From: a virus
Virus record (IMG/VR): IMGVR_UViG_3300045988_171585
Span: 1-57,195 of that record
Strand: one strand, 5' to 3'
Length of the DNA: 57,195 nt
The notes under the pieces were generated by a model. That model saw nothing but the letters and a program-made list of their open reading frames with translations. It did not search any database and was not told the origin of the DNA. Numbering within the stretch: the first letter of the stretch is position 1; the number at the start of each line of letters is the position of its first letter. The translations under genes were made by a program, and so were the position numbers. Shown here piece after piece: positions 1 through 57,195 of this stretch.

Positions 1-89
1 CACGTTCCTAAGTCTTTTAAACATTCCTATATTACCCTCCTTATCATAATTATACACAAAATATCTAATTTATGCAATAAAAAAAAAAC
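1..89. repeat. Terminal direct repeat; 1-89 is identical to 57107-57195 (circular closure or terminal redundancy)
   Basis: Exact 89-bp identity of the two window ends, read directly. Confidence 0.9.
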
Positions 90-2846: not shown

Positions 2847-3005
2847 TGATTTTCATAAAAAAAAGTGTACTCTTTTAAAGAATACACAAAGCATTATTCA
2901 TAATCCATTCTCATAAGTACAAGGCACATACTCACTACAACATAATTTTAAAAAAATTTAATGTGGAGAATAAACCATCGATGCAGATTTTCTGCACCCA
3001 TATAC

Positions 3006-3034
3006 ATAATAGCATACTATTTATAATAAGTCAA
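3006..3034 (-). promoter_or_regulatory. sigmaA-type promoter (minus)
   Basis: Reverse complement: ttgact-N17-tattat. Confidence 0.5.
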
Positions 3035-3044
3035 GAGTTTATTG

Positions 3045-3076
3045 GAAAAAAATACACCCATCAACTAAGATGGGTG
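3045..3076. terminator. Bidirectional rho-independent terminator
   Basis: Hairpin acacccatc/gatgggtgt flanked by an A-run and a T-run. Confidence 0.55.
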
Positions 3077-3186
3077 TTTTATCAAAAAAATGATTAAATT
3101 GGACTGAGAAAACACCAACTTTTAAAGCAAGTGTTTTTCAGCACAAACCAAGCAGATGAGTATTCCTTGGTCGGAATACAATTAGT

Positions 3187-3215
3187 ATTATAGCAGATGA
3201 TTAGTGTTTTGTCAA
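3187..3215 (-). promoter_or_regulatory. Consensus sigmaA promoter TTGACA-N17-TATAAT (minus)
   Basis: Reverse complement reads ttgacaaaacactaatcatctgctataat. Confidence 0.65.
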
Positions 3216-3255
3216 TATGTTTTTGGTTGATTTGTAGGATAGTGTAGAATAGGGT

Positions 3256-3350
3256 TTTGAGAATTTTAATTTTGCTAGAGCCCTTGCCCCGGGCTGGGGG
3301 GCGTGTTTTGGTATATACCCCAGCCCCACGCCTAAGTTAGATCTTTTTTT
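3256..3350 (+). ncRNA. Candidate small RNA with GC-rich 8-bp stem (ggctgggg/ccccagcc) and U-tract
   Basis: Upstream -10 tagaat (3244-3249) with ttggtt -35; GC-rich hairpin in an AT-rich genome followed by tcttttttt; no ORF. Confidence 0.35.
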
Positions 3351-3369
3351 CTTTGTTGTAAAAAAACTA

Positions 3370-3398
3370 TTGACTTTTATTTTAAAAAGTAGTATAAT
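3370..3398 (+). promoter_or_regulatory. sigmaA promoter TTGACTTTTAT-N-TATAAT
   Basis: ttgact 3370-3375, 17-bp spacer, tataat 3393-3398. Confidence 0.7.
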
Positions 3399-3431
3399 TA
3401 ATACATACAAAGGAAAGGAAGAAAAAAAGAA

Positions 3432-3659
3432 ATGAAAACAACAAAAAAACAATTGGTCGACTTTGCCACTTCAGTAAATGCGATCGACTTAACAAATGCC
3501 GACAGTGAAGAAGTCAACAACATTAGAAAAAGCGACGATATAAAAGAGGTTAGTTATGCGGTCGGTGTTTATGGTGTGATTGCGTGGCTAGGTGTTGGTA
3601 AGAGTGGCAAATATTACTACATACACGCTAGAAACACTAATTTATTTATTGTTATGTAG
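3432..3659 (+). CDS. hypothetical protein
   Basis: ORF with aggaaaggaag RBS. Confidence 0.5.
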   Translation: MKTTKKQLVDFATSVNAIDLTNADSEEVNNIRKSDDIKEVSYAVGVYGVIAWLGVGKSGKYYYIHARNTNLFIVM

Positions 3660-4747: not shown

Positions 4748-5500
4748 TCACTTTTTATCTTCTAAAAGTAGTTGCTCTTCTATGACTTTTATACTATCAC
4801 TCTCGCAAACCCTTGAATTTAAAGGGATTGAGAGTTCTAATTTTGTAGGATTATCGTGATCGAACCACGATCTTCCTAATAAGGCAAACAGGTTAGTTGA
4901 CACTGTACCGTCCATTGCAGCCATTAAAGTCGTATCATGACAAAGCTCATAAAAGTTACAAACAATTGTATGATATTTACTATCAGGATTGTTCTTATAA
5001 CCGGCAAGTGTCTTAACTGTAACACCAGTATAAGCAGCCAATCCGGTTGGTGTCGGTATCTGTTTACACAATTGTGTCAACTTAAGGTACTCTACCATTT
5101 CCATTTTAAGTTCTTCTTCACTGATCGCAGTGTAATTATTCATCAAAATATTATTAATAGTTTTTTCATACAAAATATCTTCATAAGCTTTTACATTTTC
5201 ATCAGATAGAAATTTAGATACCTTACTAACAGAATAACCCTTAGTATTACCACTTGCTAATTTACTAAGTGTATTTCTAACTCTATCCTCTTTAGTTGTA
5301 TTAAGTCTAACAGTATTGTTTAGACTACTCTTATCATCAAAATTATTCTTCTTTAATTGTTCTACATATAGCATACCGTTTTCTTCAAAATTATTTACAA
5401 TCTTATCTTTTTCAATTTCAATATCTTTCTCACTAACATTTTTCCTACCGAATTTATCAAAATCAACATCTTTAAATATTTCAGGTTTCATATAAACCAC
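4748..5500 (-). CDS. HTH DNA-binding protein, terminase-small-subunit-like
   Basis: Motif PTPTGLAAYTGVTVKTLAGY resembles the HTH of small terminase/P27-type proteins; isolated minus-strand gene flanked by CGAACAGATGT repeats. Confidence 0.35.
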   Translation of the reverse strand: MVYMKPEIFKDVDFDKFGRKNVSEKDIEIEKDKIVNNFEENGMLYVEQLKKNNFDDKSSLNNTVRLNTTKEDRVRNTLSKLASGNTKGYSVSKVSKFLSDENVKAYEDILYEKTINNILMNNYTAISEEELKMEMVEYLKLTQLCKQIPTPTGLAAYTGVTVKTLAGYKNNPDSKYHTIVCNFYELCHDTTLMAAMDGTVSTNLFALLGRSWFDHDNPTKLELSIPLNSRVCESDSIKVIEEQLLLEDKK

Positions 5501-32347: not shown

Positions 32348-32376
32348 GTAAAAATAGTTGACTTATATTGTAGAAT
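32348..32376 (+). promoter_or_regulatory. sigmaA promoter TTGACTTATAT-N-TATTAT driving a noncoding region
   Basis: Nearly identical (25 bp) to the minus-strand promoter at 55501-55529. Confidence 0.55.
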
Positions 32377-32399
32377 ATGATATTATTGTTTTGTGAGGA

Positions 32400-32955
32400 G
32401 AAATCTTCGCAAGTTTACCATTACAAATGAAACTAATACTTGCTATCTATTTTATAGGTAGCATAGAGTAGATAATTATCATAACCTGTTCTATGAGGTT
32501 GACTATATAAATCAATAGAACAATGGGAAAATATAGTCCTTATCTATTCTATGGTACTTATGAGAGTAAGTATCGAACTTAAACATATTAATTTCATGAT
32601 AATGCTATCTATTTTATAGGTAGCATAGAGTAAATAATATAACTCAATTGGTAGAGTGTGGAGCGTACGCAATTCTTAAAAACCAGGACACGAGAGTTAC
32701 AGGTTCAAATCCTGTTGTTATTTACTCTATGGTGCTTATAAATACTAGTAGTCTATAAATGTGTTCCATAATGGAGTAAGTCAAGTTCCACTTGATGTAG
32801 AAATCATCTTTATAGACAATAAGCACGGTTAGTAGGTAACGTGTTGGTTATTTACCCAAACGGGAAATAAGTATGAGCTGGTGAGCTAATATTTAAAACT
32901 AGTTGTGATTGGTTCAAATCCAATCCGTATTTGTTTCCCTAAATATTTACATATT
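32400..32955 (+). ncRNA. Candidate large structured ncRNA with two tRNA T-arm-like elements
   Basis: No ORF; promoter upstream; terminator downstream; 33-bp direct repeat at 32444 and 32607; GGTTCAAATCC T-arm motifs at 32699-32715 and 32908-32924 with pairing acceptor-like ends but no canonical anticodon arm. Confidence 0.35.
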
Positions 32956-32957
32956 AA

Positions 32958-32995
32958 AAAATCAGGATTTAATTATCCTGATTTTATTTTATTTC
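32958..32995. terminator. Bidirectional terminator
   Basis: aatcagga tttaatta tcctgatt with A-run 5' and T-run 3'. Confidence 0.65.
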
Positions 32996-53357: not shown

Positions 53358-53403
53358 AATACCAATATTATGGTATTCATTCAACTCGGAGAGATTTTCT
53401 ACT

Positions 53404-53478
53404 TGGAGGTGGTAGTAGGAATCGAACCTACAATAAAAGTTTTGCAGACTTTCGCCTTAACCCTTTGGCTATACCACC
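53404..53478 (-). tRNA. tRNA-Cys (GCA) with encoded CCA
   Basis: Reverse complement folds as a cloverleaf: acceptor GGTGGTA/TACCACC, anticodon stem AAAGT/ACTTT with loop CTGCAAA, T-arm GTAGG-TTCGATT-CCTAC, 3' TCCA. Confidence 0.8.
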
Positions 53479-53479
53479 A

Positions 53480-54310
53480 TATAGTTTTGGATGAGACTTA
53501 TTAAAAACCCATCCATAATACAAGTATACGTACCTAAAACCTGAAAAAAATAATAAAAGGAATCTTAGGTACATCAAGAAAGGAGCATTACTCGCCATCC
53601 ATGTCGGGGGTGAAATGGCTAATTAGCTATCTGAAATAATTACGTGAGATAGTCCTCCTATTAATTTTTATAAGACAATCGTTGTTCGGTCACTAGGGAG
53701 TATTAACCCAAAAACAAGTTGCGAACTTATTTCCTTAATACCCAGGGTGGTAACCGTCTTATACCTAGACTGGAATCATTACCAGCAATTCTTACACACG
53801 GTTGGGTCATAATTTATTACGTAAAATTATGTAAAAACCTTATTAATCTTTTTCATATTTCATATTTACCAAACATGCGGATTTGTGCAAGAATACCAAG
53901 TTCTAACCTTATAGAATATCACTATTCGTCAACCGCACGATTATCACTTAATTGGTAGTCTCATTTTTCCCTCACCCATACCAATAGGGGTAGTACTAAT
54001 GAGTTTTATAATTGCCCTATACATGAGCACGTTTTATAGTTGTGATCGGTTAGGCTTGTACGATACGACATTCATATAAAAACCACTATTTTCTCATTCC
54101 CTAGTTTCTAGGTCCCAGTATATATTTTACAATACACACCAACTCTATCCTCCATAAGTCTGCACTAATGGATAAAAAGCATTGAGAAAATATCCTTACT
54201 ATATTGTGTTATAGTCTTTCATAAGGTTCTCAAGTAATTATTTCAAATAGCTAATATGCGAGTAATCCTATATTGAGTGTTGTGTAATAGAAATATAATC
54301 CCTATCACAA
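53480..54310 (-). ncRNA. Candidate large noncoding RNA upstream of tRNA-Cys
   Basis: About 830 nt without ORFs on the transcribed strand; promoter at 54315-54343; locally GC-richer block 53560-53830. Confidence 0.3.
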
Positions 54311-54314
54311 TTCA

Positions 54315-54343
54315 ATAATAACATATAATACATAAAAAGTCAA
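54315..54343 (-). promoter_or_regulatory. sigmaA promoter TTGACTTTTTAT-N-TATTAT (minus)
   Basis: Reverse complement: ttgactttttatgtattatatgttattat. Confidence 0.5.
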
Positions 54344-54345
54344 TA

Positions 54346-55194
54346 TTATTTTTGCACTCTATTACCATTATCATCAACATACATCCAGTGATAACCACCA
54401 CAAGTTAAATCTTCAGGGCGATTGACAGCTTCATAGAAATATTTTAGTGTTCCACCCACTGTTTTTTCAAGCCATGCTTTAGCGGCGACAGCATTTTCAA
54501 ATATCATATTATTTTCTATACATTTTACTTTTAATCTTTCATCTTTTATCATTTTAGACACATTATAATTCTCGTCATTGTATAGTCTAAATGTATATCC
54601 ATGTGTTGAGAATCTTCCAGCATCCCCAGCCAAATAATGATTTACAATCTGAGGAGATAATCCAACATCTTTGGCACATTCCATTATGCTCCCATATAAC
54701 TTCCCTGTTTCGCAGCAAACAACTTTAATAGCACAATCCTTACCTTTATCAAGTTCTCCTTGTACTTTCTTAACTGTTTCTGCTTGTCTTTCGGCTTGTT
54801 TTTTAATAAGTTTATCTCTTTCTCTAACCCTACCTCTAGTTGGTTGTTGAACACCCTGAAGTATTTTTACAAATTTTATATCAAATTGAATTGTATCGGA
54901 TAGATAAGTAACAGTTAGCATATATTGTCTATTTCTACGAAGAGTAACTTGTATTTCTTGTGACGCACCTTCTTCAACATTATGCATAAGTTTTGTAGTC
55001 TCCGTACCAGCGTAAAATTCATCTAATATTGATCCGATTTCTAAAAACGTTAAATCTGCCGAGTTTGAGATATAGAATTTGTGATAGTTTTTTAATTTTT
55101 CAGCCTGCTGTTTGCCAAATATCTCAAGAGCCTCTTCATGTATTCTTTGTCTTTTACGTTCTCTTTTTTTAATTTCTGCTTTCGTTAAACCCAT
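54346..55194 (-). CDS. Homing-endonuclease-like DNA-binding protein (two NUMOD/IENR-type repeats, no recognisable nuclease core)
   Basis: Repeats VVCCETGKLYGSIMECAKDVGLSPQIVNHYLAG...GYTFRLY and VKCIENNMIFENAVAAKAWL...GGYHWMYVDD; start refined to the ATG at 55194 after tggagg. Confidence 0.5.
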   Translation of the reverse strand: MGLTKAEIKKRERKRQRIHEEALEIFGKQQAEKLKNYHKFYISNSADLTFLEIGSILDEFYAGTETTKLMHNVEEGASQEIQVTLRRNRQYMLTVTYLSDTIQFDIKFVKILQGVQQPTRGRVRERDKLIKKQAERQAETVKKVQGELDKGKDCAIKVVCCETGKLYGSIMECAKDVGLSPQIVNHYLAGDAGRFSTHGYTFRLYNDENYNVSKMIKDERLKVKCIENNMIFENAVAAKAWLEKTVGGTLKYFYEAVNRPEDLTCGGYHWMYVDDNGNRVQK

Positions 55195-55295
55195 ATACAA
55201 TCCTCCATATATAACAAAAGAAAAGGTATGATAACCTTTCCCCCTATCAATGAACAAAACAATGTGTAATGGAATAATCTTCCCAAACACAATTT

Positions 55296-55324
55296 TATTA
55301 TATCATATTATTCAAAATAAGTCA
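55296..55324 (-). promoter_or_regulatory. sigmaA promoter TTGACTTATTTTGAATAAT...TATAAT (minus)
   Basis: Reverse complement read directly; same cassette as 2818-2846. Confidence 0.6.
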
Positions 55325-55334
55325 AGAAAAAAAG

Positions 55335-55494
55335 AGCCCCATATGGGGCAAAATTGTAGCAAAAAGCTTTTCTCGATGTTTGTCGGAACACCTATCCGAA
55401 TAGTTTCTATCCCTTGAAACCATTAAAACATGGATGTTTCCCAATTACAATACTGCAGGGCTCCGAAACATCTAATGAACCTAATTCATGAATC
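55335..55494 (-). ncRNA. Candidate sRNA (about 160 nt) bounded by promoter and terminator
   Basis: Promoter 55501-55529 (minus), terminator hairpin gcccca tat ggggc with A-run at 55323-55349; no ORF. Confidence 0.4.
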
Positions 55495-55500
55495 AATATT

Positions 55501-55529
55501 AATATATCATATTCTACGATATAAGTCAA
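55501..55529 (-). promoter_or_regulatory. sigmaA promoter (minus), near-duplicate of plus promoter 32348-32376
   Basis: ttgacttatatcgtagaatatgatat versus ttgacttatattgtagaatatgatat. Confidence 0.55.
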
Positions 55530-55544
55530 GTGTTTTTGTTATAA

Positions 55545-55572
55545 TAAAAGAAAAAAGAAACCTCGGTTTCTC
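55545..55572 (-). terminator. Rho-independent terminator (minus)
   Basis: gaaacc tc ggtttc with upstream A-run on plus. Confidence 0.5.
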
Positions 55573-55609
55573 TTTCCCCCGTCAATAACGGAATGTATAT
55601 AAAATATAT

Positions 55610-55638
55610 TATACCATATAATTTAAAATAAGTCAACT
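55610..55638 (-). promoter_or_regulatory. sigmaA promoter TTGACT-N17-TATAAT (minus)
   Basis: Reverse complement read directly. Confidence 0.5.
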
Positions 55639-55822
55639 ATTTTTTATAAATAATCGAAAATACTTCCCCAACTTTTTTATTTGTAACATAAGTTTTCGTT
55701 ATATCACGATTCACCTCAACGATGGGTTCTATTCTAACCTCAATGTTTTTATCGTCTTCGACTAACTTTATCATTCTTTCCACATTATCCCTTATCAGGG
55801 CAATCTTCTCTTCTTTATTCAT
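55637..55822 (-). CDS. hypothetical protein
   Basis: ORF coupled to the upstream gene. Confidence 0.45.
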   Translation of the reverse strand: MNKEEKIALIRDNVERMIKLVEDDKNIEVRIEPIVEVNRDITKTYVTNKKVGEVFSIIYKK

Positions 55823-56760
55823 TATCTTCTCCTTATTAATTTCTTACCTTCAAATACTTCAAGTGTAGGTTCTATACTATAGATATTACCTTTATTATCA
55901 ACCTCGATATCAACCCAATAACAACTTTTTTCATTCTTAAATCCCATGCTTCTCGAAAATGGGGTATCATCCTCTAACGCACCGACCTGAAAGCAATGTT
56001 TTCCCATATAATACATGTACATCGCATTATGAAAATGTCCTTGCATTACAATATCAATCTTCTTATCCTGCGGAAGTGTTTCAACATAACGTTGAAGTTT
56101 ATAACTAAGACTATAGCTTCTACCCCCACCACCGTGGTGCATATGTATTCCAACTTTTCCGATTTTCAAATCTGCTGTATCCGGATTTAAATAAATCAAG
56201 TCTTCTCTTTCTCTTGATATTGCTTTACCCATATCCGAGCCACCATTTTTAAAATAAGTATCCATATGATTTCCACCAATAAAGAAAGTTTTACCACTAA
56301 AATGTGGGTACTTATTTACAACATAATCTAAATGTTCATCAAAGCCAACACACCTAAGTTCATAAATATGTTGAGGACGATTCATATAGATTCCGTCAAG
56401 CACGTCTCCACAATGCAAAACATATTTAATACCTTTACTTTCTGCTTTATCATAAATATAATTTAAGATATCAATGCGATCTGCTTTATTTGCAAGATGC
56501 GAATCACTTATCATAAGAAGCGACAAATGCTGTGTATTATCAGGGACTTCATACACTCCAAAGTTTTCGATAGGTTTTTTAAGTTTTACAATCTGTCCAT
56601 CGATATAATCAACTAAAAAACCTTTCTCTTTTAAAATCATCACAAGACCTATTATTTCTTCTTTTGATAATCCTACTTTTTCAGCCATTTCCTCAAGTGG
56701 TATACCTTTTTTTATAAGGAATTTCACCTTATCAATTATCTCTTTCTCCAACTCTATCAC
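55822..56760 (-). CDS. Calcineurin-like metallophosphoesterase with N-terminal HTH
   Basis: LMISDSHL, HCGDVLDG, FIGGNHMD, GHFH phosphoesterase motifs. Confidence 0.7.
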   Translation of the reverse strand: MIELEKEIIDKVKFLIKKGIPLEEMAEKVGLSKEEIIGLVMILKEKGFLVDYIDGQIVKLKKPIENFGVYEVPDNTQHLSLLMISDSHLANKADRIDILNYIYDKAESKGIKYVLHCGDVLDGIYMNRPQHIYELRCVGFDEHLDYVVNKYPHFSGKTFFIGGNHMDTYFKNGGSDMGKAISREREDLIYLNPDTADLKIGKVGIHMHHGGGGRSYSLSYKLQRYVETLPQDKKIDIVMQGHFHNAMYMYYMGKHCFQVGALEDDTPFSRSMGFKNEKSCYWVDIEVDNKGNIYSIEPTLEVFEGKKLIRRR

Positions 56761-56806: not shown

Positions 56807-57163
56807 CTACCACCACATATTATAATAAACTAAATAAAACACTTCAAACACTTCATCAATTGCATTTGTAAATTCTTCTTTAAACTCTTCTTTAATCGAA
56901 TAATCATAATATACTTTTATAAGCCAATTTGTATCCTTAATAATAATATTAATAGCATCTTTTTGCGTAATAATCTTCCCCTTATAATCGTAGGTATAAT
57001 GTTCTAAATCAACAATATTACCAGCCTCTTTAAGATACATTTTAAAATGCTCATTTATCCAAAGTAAAAACGAGTAATCAATGTTCCAACATTCCTCTTT
57101 TAATTTCACGTTCCTAAGTCTTTTAAACATTCCTATATTACCCTCCTTATCATAATTATACAC
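56807..57163 (-). CDS. hypothetical protein
   Basis: ORF; start codon lies inside the terminal repeat. Confidence 0.45.
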   Translation of the reverse strand: MYNYDKEGNIGMFKRLRNVKLKEECWNIDYSFLLWINEHFKMYLKEAGNIVDLEHYTYDYKGKIITQKDAINIIIKDTNWLIKVYYDYSIKEEFKEEFTNAIDEVFEVFYLVYYNMWW

Positions 57164-57195
57164 AAAATATCTAATTTATGCAATAAAAAAAAAAC

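What the first reader, a model, noticed from the sequence alone, without database searches (positions are those of the whole stretch)
55323..55640. Two tandem promoter-terminator mini-units (candidate sRNAs) upstream of the homing-endonuclease-like gene
Reading the minus strand gives promoter 55610-55638, then a terminator (55545-55572), then promoter 55501-55529, then about 160 nt with no ORF and a strong GC hairpin terminator (55323-55349), then promoter 55296-55324 for the CDS. This implies discrete small transcripts of roughly 50 nt and 160 nt.
Basis: seen in the sequence. Interest (0 to 1): 0.55.

Follow-up and report, generated by a model that had tools for sequence, protein, structure and literature searches.

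The report
Phage small-RNA cassettes beside ROOL RNA

Summary
On the minus strand, three near-consensus extended -10 sigma-A promoters (P1 55636-55608, P2 55529-55501, P3 55325-55297) alternate with hairpin+U-tract terminators (T1 55578-55540, T2 55349-55326). This promoter type occurs 21 times in the window against 2.6 expected. The window is a complete ~57.1-kb phage genome. The cassettes lie in an RNA island between a metallophosphatase gene and the terminase genes, which also holds a ROOL RNA (53630-54250, 150 bits, missed by default filters) and tRNA-Cys.

U2 (~168 nt, P2 to T2) is present in all 18 related loci found. It has 1-nt indels and no conserved ORF, and diverges 4-7% against 16-21% at neighbouring four-fold sites. 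It shows no compensatory covariation, no Rfam match, no homolog outside this narrow clade and no significant antisense target in the phage.

U1 (~55 nt) is present in 12/18 loci, is flanked by a 24-nt direct repeat, and resembles a gene-less duplicate of the P3 leader module.

Best reading: autonomous small-RNA transcription units. U2 is a functional clade-specific phage sRNA with an unknown target; U1 is dispensable. Expression is untested. It is a new member of a known kind, of modest interest.

The parts
55637..55822 (-). 61-aa gene. Its stop codon abuts P1. In relatives that lack U1 it abuts P2, so T2 then also ends the upstream operon.
55608..55636 (-). P1: sigma-A-type promoter TTGACT-17-TATAAT with TG extended -10
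55540..55601 (-). U1 transcript (inferred, ~55-60 nt): small hairpin 55591-55579, then terminator T1 (stem-loop 55578-55549 + U-tract 55548-55540)
   Evidence: -18.6 kcal/mol, z -3.7. Present in 12/18 relatives. Two sequence versions keep both hairpins. Similar to the P3 leader.
55530..55553 (-). Degenerate second copy of the 24-nt direct repeat. The first copy (55637-55660) is the end of the 61-aa gene. The two copies bracket the U1 insertion.
55501..55529 (-). P2: TTGACT-17-TATATT with TG. Hexamers invariant in 18 loci. Two spacer alleles, one of them 91% identical to the promoter at 32358-32386(+).
   Evidence: (I6)
55327..55494 (-). U2 transcript (inferred, ~168 nt): 5' hairpin, conserved core, A/U-rich tail, terminator T2
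   Evidence: 93-96% identity in relatives. Slower than four-fold sites.
55326..55349 (-). T2: intrinsic terminator GCCCC-AUAU-GGGGC + UCUUUUUUUC. Stem invariant, loop varies (AUAU/ACAU).
55297..55325 (-). P3: TTGACT-17-TATAAT with TG. The -35 starts directly after the T2 U-tract.
55195..55291 (-). P3 leader: hairpin a (55291-55263, two sequence versions, fold kept); terminator-like hairpin b (55248-55211; 39 nt at 55258-55220 identical in 18/18 loci); RBS GGAGG at 55206-55202
54346..55194 (-). 282-aa gene with NUMOD-like DNA-binding repeats (sub-threshold). No nuclease domain detected. Highly divergent among relatives (62% nt identity).
54315..54343 (-). P4: promoter of the ROOL-tRNA unit (context)
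53630..54250 (-). ROOL RNA (RF03087), full-length match (context: same RNA island)
   Evidence: 150.1 bits, gathering score 99.1, E 3e-33
53404..53478 (-). tRNA-Cys(GCA), followed by an AT-rich terminator (53377-53351) and by P5 (53347-53319) for the terminase genes (context)

Best explanation
The segment holds two autonomous small non-coding transcription units on the minus strand of a complete ~57-kb gut-Firmicutes-type phage genome. They belong to an RNA-gene island, in this order: U1, U2, leader + NUMOD-like gene, ROOL RNA, tRNA-Cys. The island lies between a metallophosphatase operon and the terminase genes.

How it most likely works:
- Host sigma-A RNA polymerase starts at strong extended -10 promoters and stops at intrinsic terminators. 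This would give a ~55-nt RNA (U1) and a ~168-nt RNA (U2).
- U2 is a functional, clade-specific phage small RNA constrained mainly at the sequence level. It most likely acts in trans, by base pairing with a host transcript or by binding a protein.
- In genomes without U1, U2 also forms the 3' end of the upstream operon, like 3'-UTR sRNAs that carry their own promoter.
- U1 is a dispensable, gene-less duplicate of the promoter + terminator-hairpin leader module that precedes the NUMOD-like gene. It is gained and lost by recombination between the repeated promoter cassettes or the 24-nt repeats. Its only confident role is to insulate U2 from upstream read-through.

Shown: promoter and terminator anatomy, conservation, non-coding nature, presence/absence pattern, island context.
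Inferred: that the transcripts exist and are discrete, and that U2 acts in trans.
For: - Promoter class is strongly over-represented: 21 observed vs 2.6 expected. P1-P3 score 10-11/12 with TG.
- Hairpin energies: T1 -14.3, T2 -10.4, each followed by a U-tract.
- Across 18 related loci the hexamers, the 17-nt spacing and the T2 stem are kept, while spacers and the loop vary.
- U2 is present in 18/18 loci, with 10 distinct sequences and 1-nt indels, hence non-coding.
- U2 divergence is 4.2-6.6%, against 15.6-20.9% at four-fold sites of the adjacent gene in the L007-type relatives (Fisher p 4e-5 to 7e-3).
- U2 identity is 93-96%, against NUMOD gene 62%, ROOL 78%, tRNA-Cys 75-81% and terS 77%.
- U1 is present in 12/18 loci and flanked by the 24-nt repeat. 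Its two versions are 72% identical but keep both hairpins. The window's U1 is similar to the P3 leader: score 41, 0/2000 shuffles.
- Similar promoter-terminator units occupy the same slot in distant relatives: L010, L024, L003.
- ROOL and tRNA lie in the same island.
Against: - There are no expression data.
- No compensatory base-pair change in 51 predicted U2 pairs, and a few pairs are broken, so the internal fold is unsupported.
- No Rfam family.
- No antisense target in the phage better than shuffled controls.
- The host is unknown, so host targets could not be examined.
- U2 lies inside a block that is generally well conserved (metallophosphatase 92-97%, 61-aa gene 96-99%). Part of its conservation could therefore be hitch-hiking, and the four significant comparisons are not independent.
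- The T2 stem is only 5 bp, so some read-through into P3/NUMOD is possible.
Confidence: 0.55

Rival explanations
1. Regulatory promoter-terminator units rather than RNA genes. The short RNAs would be by-products, like lambda 6S RNA from PR'-tR'. T1, T2 and hairpin b would be conditional terminators that a phage antiterminator or an RNA-binding protein overrides, so that P1-P3 jointly feed the NUMOD-like gene and downstream units at the right time.
For: - Three tandem strong promoters are each followed by a terminator-type hairpin just upstream of the packaging module.
- Hairpin b sits inside the leader of a protein gene and is identical in 18/18 loci, which suggests a regulatory site.
- U1 is homologous to that leader.
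Against: - Every downstream unit has its own consensus promoter (P3, P4, and P5 directly before terS with no terminator in its leader), so read-through is not needed.
- No conserved antiterminator alternative to T2 is visible; the only upstream GCCC is variable.
- No Q/N-like or other antiterminator was found among the 16 proteins scanned.
- This model does not explain sequence constraint along the whole 168 nt of U2.
Confidence: 0.15
2. No RNA-level function. The cassettes would be products of promoter-cassette duplication and recombination. U2 would be retained because it hitch-hikes in a recently shared recombination block, or because the DNA serves another role such as protein binding sites.
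For: - Promoter cassettes are clearly duplicated and exchanged. P2 is ~91% identical to the promoter at 32358, and P2/P3 spacer alleles are swapped between relatives.
- U1 and unit B at 3034-2860 are presence/absence polymorphisms.
- U2 shows no covariation, and its flanking coding genes are equally conserved.
Against: - U2 is flanked by direct promoter repeats that should delete it as readily as U1, yet it is kept in 18/18 loci.
- It diverges 2-5 times more slowly than adjacent synonymous sites and more slowly than the neighbouring non-coding promoter spacers and hairpin a (79-86% identity).
- Its own promoter hexamers and terminator stem are maintained.
Confidence: 0.2
3. U2 is a functional companion of the ROOL/tRNA island, for example a cargo, assembly cofactor or regulator of the ROOL RNA nanocage, or an anti-defence decoy RNA expressed with it.
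For: - U2 and ROOL co-occur in every close relative that covers both positions.
- ROOL-bearing distant relatives L010 and L024 carry another conserved ~145-nt promoter-terminator RNA in the same island.
- The function and partners of ROOL are unknown, and cargo has been proposed (PMC12286853).
Against: - The small RNAs next to ROOL in L010/L024 are not homologous to U2.
- No k>=10 perfect complement to U2 lies in the ROOL unit.
- U2 is separated from ROOL by a protein gene and has its own promoter and terminator.
- Relative L003 has a promoter-terminator unit directly upstream of terS and no ROOL call at gathering threshold, though default filters can miss ROOL.
Confidence: 0.05

Closest known systems
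Phage/prophage-encoded small RNAs with their own sigma-70-type promoter and intrinsic terminator (e.g. lambda OOP, P22 Sar, P1/P7 C4, prophage DicF, S. aureus island Spr RNAs); from general knowledge
   Same: Compact promoter-to-terminator unit of 50-200 nt, non-coding, carried in an accessory region of a phage genome, and lineage-specific.
   Different: No sequence or structure match to any Rfam family. No cis-antisense partner and no predicted phage target. Expression and function untested.
Lambda PR'-tR' 6S RNA / Q antitermination unit (general knowledge)
   Same: A constitutive strong promoter gives a short terminated transcript just upstream of the late/packaging genes.
   Different: Here the downstream units carry their own promoters, no Q-like protein was found, and there are several tandem units, one of which is optional.
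ROOL RNA / phage tRNA islands (RF03087; PMC5737381, PMC12286853)
   Same: Same genomic island. ROOL at 53630-54250 and tRNA-Cys lie ~1.1 kb downstream. Relatives carry ROOL + tRNA arrays in the same slot.
   Different: U1/U2 are outside the ROOL model, far smaller, and have separate promoters and terminators.
3'-UTR-derived sRNAs with an internal promoter (type I, e.g. DapZ, MicL; general knowledge)
   Same: In U1-less relatives the stop codon of the 61-aa gene abuts the -35 of P2. U2 is then both the 3' end of the operon and an independently promoted RNA that shares its terminator.
   Different: Gram-positive-type phage context. No Hfq-type evidence. Not tested experimentally.
Plasmid countertranscripts (ctRNA_pND324, RF00238): best sub-threshold Rfam hit for U1
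   Same: A ~60-nt RNA with two hairpins and a U-tail.
   Different: 26.6 bits against a gathering score of 45, E 0.086. The 5' hairpin of the model is largely unaligned, and there is no replication gene or antisense target.

Membership tests
Sigma-A/sigma-70 extended -10 promoter | TTGACA-like -35, 17+/-1 nt spacer, TG at -15/-14, TATAAT-like -10 | tested here: met
   P1 11/12, P2 10/12, P3 11/12, all with 17-nt spacer and TG. The class is enriched, 21 vs 2.6. Hexamers conserved in relatives.
Intrinsic (Rho-independent) terminator | Stable stem-loop immediately followed by a U-tract | tested here: met
   T2: 5 G-C pairs + UCUUUUUUU. T1: 13-14 bp, -14.3 kcal/mol + UUUUAUUAU. Termination efficiency not testable here.
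Structured ncRNA (conserved secondary structure) | Compensatory base-pair substitutions across homologs | tested here: not met
   U2: 0 of 51 pairs with changes on both sides in 10 distinct sequences, and the score is no better than shuffles. Divergence is too low for a powerful test. U1 and hairpin a keep their hairpins between two sequence versions.
Any Rfam 15 family | Covariance-model score at or above the gathering threshold | tested here: not met
   Small-region permissive scan of 55170-55660: best hit 26.6 bits against 45. The same kind of scan recovered ROOL nearby.
ROOL RNA (RF03087) | Match to the 574-position ROOL model | tested here: not met
   The ROOL match covers 53630-54250 only. 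U1/U2 lie 1.1-1.4 kb upstream and do not match.
Trans-acting base-pairing sRNA | Conserved accessible seed with a complementary target mRNA | tested here: inconclusive
   Invariant 22-nt and 18-nt blocks exist. No phage target beats shuffles. Host unknown, and no U2 or host clue in GTDB genomes.
Lambda-type Q antitermination unit | Q-family protein; short terminated transcript; late genes dependent on read-through | tested here: not met
   Downstream units have their own consensus promoters P3, P4, P5. No antiterminator among the 16 proteins scanned. The proteome was not scanned exhaustively.
Riboswitch / attenuator leader of the downstream gene | Continuous leader ending in a conditional terminator with a mutually exclusive antiterminator | tested here: not met
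   For U2: P3 lies between T2 and the gene, and there is no conserved antiterminator. For the P3 leader (hairpin b) attenuation remains possible and untested.
Type I toxin-antitoxin | Small hydrophobic peptide ORF with an overlapping antisense RNA | tested here: not met
   No conserved ORF on either strand. Indels and T-run length changes break all candidates.
Nuclease-associated guide RNA (HEARO/omega RNA) or group I intron with homing endonuclease | IscB/TnpB-type or LAGLIDADG/GIY-YIG/HNH nuclease gene; matching RNA model | tested here: not met
   The downstream protein shows only sub-threshold NUMOD-like similarity (23.7 bits against 27) and no nuclease domain. No intron or HEARO hit.
RNA anti-CRISPR (repeat mimic) | Near-identity to a host CRISPR repeat | not testable with these tools
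   Only 15-bit chance-level hits to CRISPR-DR models. Host and its repeats unknown.

The most novel reading that the evidence does not exclude
U2, and the non-homologous small promoter-terminator RNAs that occupy the same slot in ROOL-bearing relatives, could be dedicated partners of the phage ROOL/tRNA island. Possible roles are cargo, assembly or targeting cofactor of the ROOL nanocage, or a co-expressed anti-defence decoy. If so, a small genetically tractable RNA would give an entry point to the unknown function of ROOL.
Probability: 0.06. Interest if true: 0.75.

Novelty: new member of a known kind. Interest (0 to 1): 0.3.

Why it matters
Very few small RNAs of gut Firmicutes phages have been described. 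This phage group appears common in human gut metagenomes: its metallophosphatase cluster has 241 member sequences, and one member is indexed in 49 blocks of the collection.

U2 is a clean candidate. It is conserved, non-coding, and has a consensus promoter and terminator. It sits in an island with ROOL, an abundant RNA of unknown function.

The locus also shows how promoter-terminator cassettes are duplicated, swapped and lost in phage genomes.

In addition, default Rfam filtering missed a full-length ROOL RNA here, which is useful for annotation practice. None of this overturns current understanding.

Tried and rejected
- **Known RNA family:** whole-window, 3-kb and 0.5-kb Rfam scans gave nothing for U1/U2/U3.
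- **Remote homologs of U2:** searched with a covariance model (R1) in 30+ loci of distant and intermediate relatives, by exact patterns in IMG/VR, and in GTDB genomes. None found. Three extra 18-mer hits were chance.
- **Covariation support for the U2 fold:** none.
- **Antisense targets inside the phage:** perfect complements are <=12 nt, at chance level. Duplex energies with 91 translation-initiation regions are no better than shuffled queries. One duplex scan timed out.
- **Coding potential:** rejected because of indels and the lack of an RBS or conserved ORF.
- **Riboswitch/attenuator reading of U2:** rejected (P3 intervenes, no antiterminator).
- **Group I intron, HEARO/omega RNA, type I TA, tRNA-like:** rejected.
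- **CRISPR-repeat mimic:** only chance-level hits, host unknown.
- **Homology of U2 to the small RNAs of L010/L024/L003:** rejected.
- **Host identification:** via GTDB genomes and an NCBI MAG, uninformative.
- **Phage regulators (antiterminator, sigma factor) in the window:** none found among the 16 proteins scanned.

Full report
**1. Observation**

Read on the minus strand, the region contains three sigma-A-type promoters with TG-extended -10 boxes and 17-nt spacers:
- P1, 55636-55608: TTGACT/TATAAT, 11 of 12.
- P2, 55529-55501: TTGACT/TATATT, 10 of 12.
- P3, 55325-55297: TTGACT/TATAAT, 11 of 12.

The composite pattern TTGACT-N14-TGN-TATAAT (<=2 mismatches) occurs 21 times in the window against 2.6 +/- 1.5 in dinucleotide shuffles, and no shuffle reached 21. 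These are therefore real members of this genome's promoter repertoire (aligned).

Between P1 and P2 lies a small hairpin plus a 13-14-bp stem-loop followed by UUUUAUUAU (T1). The whole unit folds at -18.6 kcal/mol, z -3.7, and T1 alone at -14.3.

Between P2 and P3 lie ~168 nt ending in GCCCC-AUAU-GGGGC + UCUUUUUUUC (T2), which the terminator scan called (-10.4 kcal/mol).

The second (55248-55211, -15.3 kcal/mol, z -4.8) is terminator-like and sits just before the RBS.

**2. Context**

The window is a complete, circularly permuted phage genome: bases 1-89 are identical to 57107-57195. It is AT-rich. The large terminase is 42% identical to that of Clostridium innocuum phage Maintenon, its best match among isolated phages.

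On the minus strand the order is:
- metallophosphatase gene (55822-56760; Pfam Metallophos_2);
- a 61-aa gene;
- U1;
- U2;
- P3 leader plus a 282-aa gene;
- P4 (54343-54315);
- an ~830-nt ORF-free stretch;
- tRNA-Cys (53478-53404);
- an AT-rich terminator;
- P5 (53347-53319);
- small and large terminase genes.

Two distant relatives carry ROOL RNA in this slot. I therefore rescanned 53380-54350 alone with permissive filters and found a full-length ROOL RNA at 53630-54250 (150.1 bits, gathering score 99.1, E 3e-33). The whole-window and 3-kb scans had missed it. ROOL is known to sit in phages near tRNA islands and to form RNA-only nanocages of unknown function (PMC5737381; PMC12286853).

The finding therefore lies in an RNA-gene island.

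The 282-aa 'homing-endonuclease-like' protein shows only sub-threshold NUMOD-like DNA-binding similarity (23.7 bits against 27; PHROG E 1e-3). It has no nuclease domain and no solved relative.

**3. Comparative evidence for U2**

I anchored searches on the metallophosphatase protein and retrieved loci from several sources:
- IMG/VR;
- metagenomes;
- the large protein collection.

Eighteen loci (window included) carry U2, with 10 distinct sequences.

- U2 is 93-96% identical to the window copy. For comparison, the NUMOD-like gene is 62%, ROOL 78%, tRNA-Cys 75-81%, terS 77% and terL ~85%.
- U2 divergence is 4.2-6.6%. Divergence at four-fold degenerate sites of the adjacent metallophosphatase gene is 7-21%. 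The one-sided Fisher p is 4e-5 to 7e-3 in the four L007-type comparisons, which are not independent, and is not significant for the two closest relatives.
- One-nucleotide indels and loss of the only short ATG frame show that U2 is non-coding.
- P2 keeps its hexamers and spacing while its spacer exists in two alleles. The T2 stem is invariant while its loop varies. This is the pattern expected for a working promoter and terminator.
- None of 51 predicted pairs shows a compensatory change, a few pairs are broken, and the covariation score does not exceed shuffles. The internal fold (MFE -46.1 kcal/mol, z -2.2) is therefore unsupported, and the constraint looks sequence-level.
- A covariance model of U2 finds nothing in intermediate relatives (72-86% metallophosphatase identity) or distant ones.
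- Exact-pattern scans find U2 only in three contigs of one IMG/VR sample and nowhere in GTDB species genomes.

U2 is thus a young, clade-restricted element.

**4. U1 and the P3 leader**

U1 is present in 12 of 18 loci and absent from 6, in both sub-lineages.
- Where U1 is absent, the stop codon of the 61-aa gene abuts the -35 of P2.
- Where it is present, it is bracketed by a 24-nt direct repeat (TTTTCGATTATTTATAAAAAATAG). The second copy of this repeat is degenerate in the window.
- The window's U1 is unique. It is only ~72% identical to the version in the other 11 loci, within genomes that are otherwise 96% identical. Both versions keep the small hairpin and the terminator hairpin.
- The transcribed part of the window's U1 is significantly similar to the P3 leader, including hairpin b (local score 41, 0 of 2000 shuffles).

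U1 therefore looks like a gene-less duplicate of the promoter-plus-hairpin leader module. It could be gained or lost by recombination between the repeated cassettes.

By contrast, 39 nt of the P3 leader around hairpin b are identical in 18/18 loci. This holds even though hairpin a exists in two versions with the fold kept and the coding sequence has diverged to 62%. This invariance is unexplained and suggests an attenuator or a protein-binding site.

**5. The slot in the wider family**

In more distant relatives the same position holds different cargo.
- L010 and L024 carry tRNA arrays, ROOL, and a mutually homologous ~145-nt promoter-terminator RNA that is unrelated to U2.
- L003 and L009 carry a different ~185-nt promoter-terminator unit directly before terS.
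- Others carry protein morons such as a glycosyltransferase, RusA, a methylase and SAM synthetase.

Within the window there are further cassettes:
- Two more tandem promoter-terminator units at 3215-2860(-), variably present in relatives.
- A ~600-nt ORF-free unit at 32387-32990(+) behind a promoter 91% identical to P2.

Small autonomous RNA cassettes are thus a recurrent, fast-turning-over feature of this phage lineage.

**6. Function tests**

- No Rfam family matches. The best hit is 26.6 bits against a gathering score of 45, for a ctRNA model aligned mostly through the terminator.
- No significant antisense target exists in the phage. The longest perfect complement of U2 outside its own locus is 12 nt, against typically 12-13 nt in shuffles.
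- Best duplex energies with 91 translation-initiation regions are no better than for shuffled queries, for U1, U2 and the P3 leader alike.
- The host is unknown, so host targets could not be examined.

**7. Interpretation**

The best-supported reading (confidence about 0.55) is that these are autonomous small-RNA transcription units.
- U2 is a functional, clade-specific phage sRNA, probably abundant given its promoter, acting in trans on an unknown host RNA or protein. In U1-less genomes it doubles as the 3' end of the upstream operon.
- U1 is a dispensable duplicate whose one confident role is transcriptional insulation.

Rivals:
- **Conditional terminators under antitermination control, with the short RNAs as by-products** (0.15). 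Weakened because every downstream unit has its own consensus promoter and no antiterminator was found.
- **No RNA function, cassette turnover plus hitch-hiking** (0.2). Weakened by retention of U2 in 18/18 loci despite flanking direct repeats, and by its slow evolution.
- **A functional link to ROOL** (0.05).

The existence of the transcripts and any trans action are inferred, not shown.

**8. Verdict**

U2 is a new family-level member of a known kind (phage-encoded small RNA gene), U1 is an accessory cassette, and the neighbouring ROOL RNA is a new instance of a known family. Interest is modest at 0.3. The ROOL-partner reading (probability ~0.06) is the only route to high interest.

Noticed in passing
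window 53630-54250 (-): Full-length ROOL RNA (RF03087, 150 bits, E 3e-33). It is driven by P4 (54343-54315) and followed by tRNA-Cys. Whole-window and 3-kb Rfam scans missed it; only a 1-kb permissive scan found it. About 78% identical in close relatives, so it is good material for covariation.
   Followed up: partly
window 55220-55258 (-): A 39-nt leader element with a terminator-like hairpin, just upstream of the RBS of the NUMOD-like gene. It is identical in 18/18 related loci while its flanks diverge to 62-80%. Possibly an attenuator or a protein-binding site.
   Followed up: partly
window 2860-3215 (-): Two more tandem promoter-terminator units without ORFs (about 140 and 150 nt), upstream of a 98-aa gene. 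Unit B is absent from relatives L002/L007, and the region is replaced in L001. No Rfam family (best hit RsaD, 26.8 bits against 50).
   Followed up: partly
window 32358-32990 (+): A ~600-nt ORF-free transcription unit behind a promoter 91% identical to P2. It contains a tRNA-like element with a 33-nt insert in the anticodon region (Rfam tRNA 43 bits; not called by ARAGORN), a 29-nt internal repeat (32442-32470 / 32604-32632), a second T-arm-like hairpin near 32905-32930, and a terminal terminator.
   Followed up: no
window 3278-3332: A GC-rich inverted repeat (GGGCTGGGG ... CCCCAGCCC) in an otherwise AT-rich genome. It lies between the divergent promoters at 3215(-) and 3370(+). It could be a cos/ori-type site or a bidirectional terminator.
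   Followed up: no
window 1-89 and 57107-57195: An exact 89-bp terminal redundancy. The window is a complete circular or circularly permuted ~57.1-kb phage genome.
   Followed up: yes
L010 6771-6950 and L024 1397-1575: A ~145-nt promoter-terminator RNA conserved between two rumen-type relatives, with apparent compensatory changes in its hairpins. It lies between a tRNA array and a tRNA+ROOL unit. It is unrelated to U2 and matches no Rfam family.
   Followed up: partly
L039-L041, ~3050-3605: Intermediate relatives (80% metallophosphatase identity) encode a sigma-70-like factor (Sigma70_r2/r4) ~400 nt upstream of the metallophosphatase gene. No such gene was found at that place in the window.
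   Followed up: no
window 4748-5500 (-): A 250-aa protein with sub-threshold similarity to the small-terminase DNA-binding domain (GP3_package), located far from terL. The 82-aa ORF directly upstream of terL has no family match.
   Followed up: no
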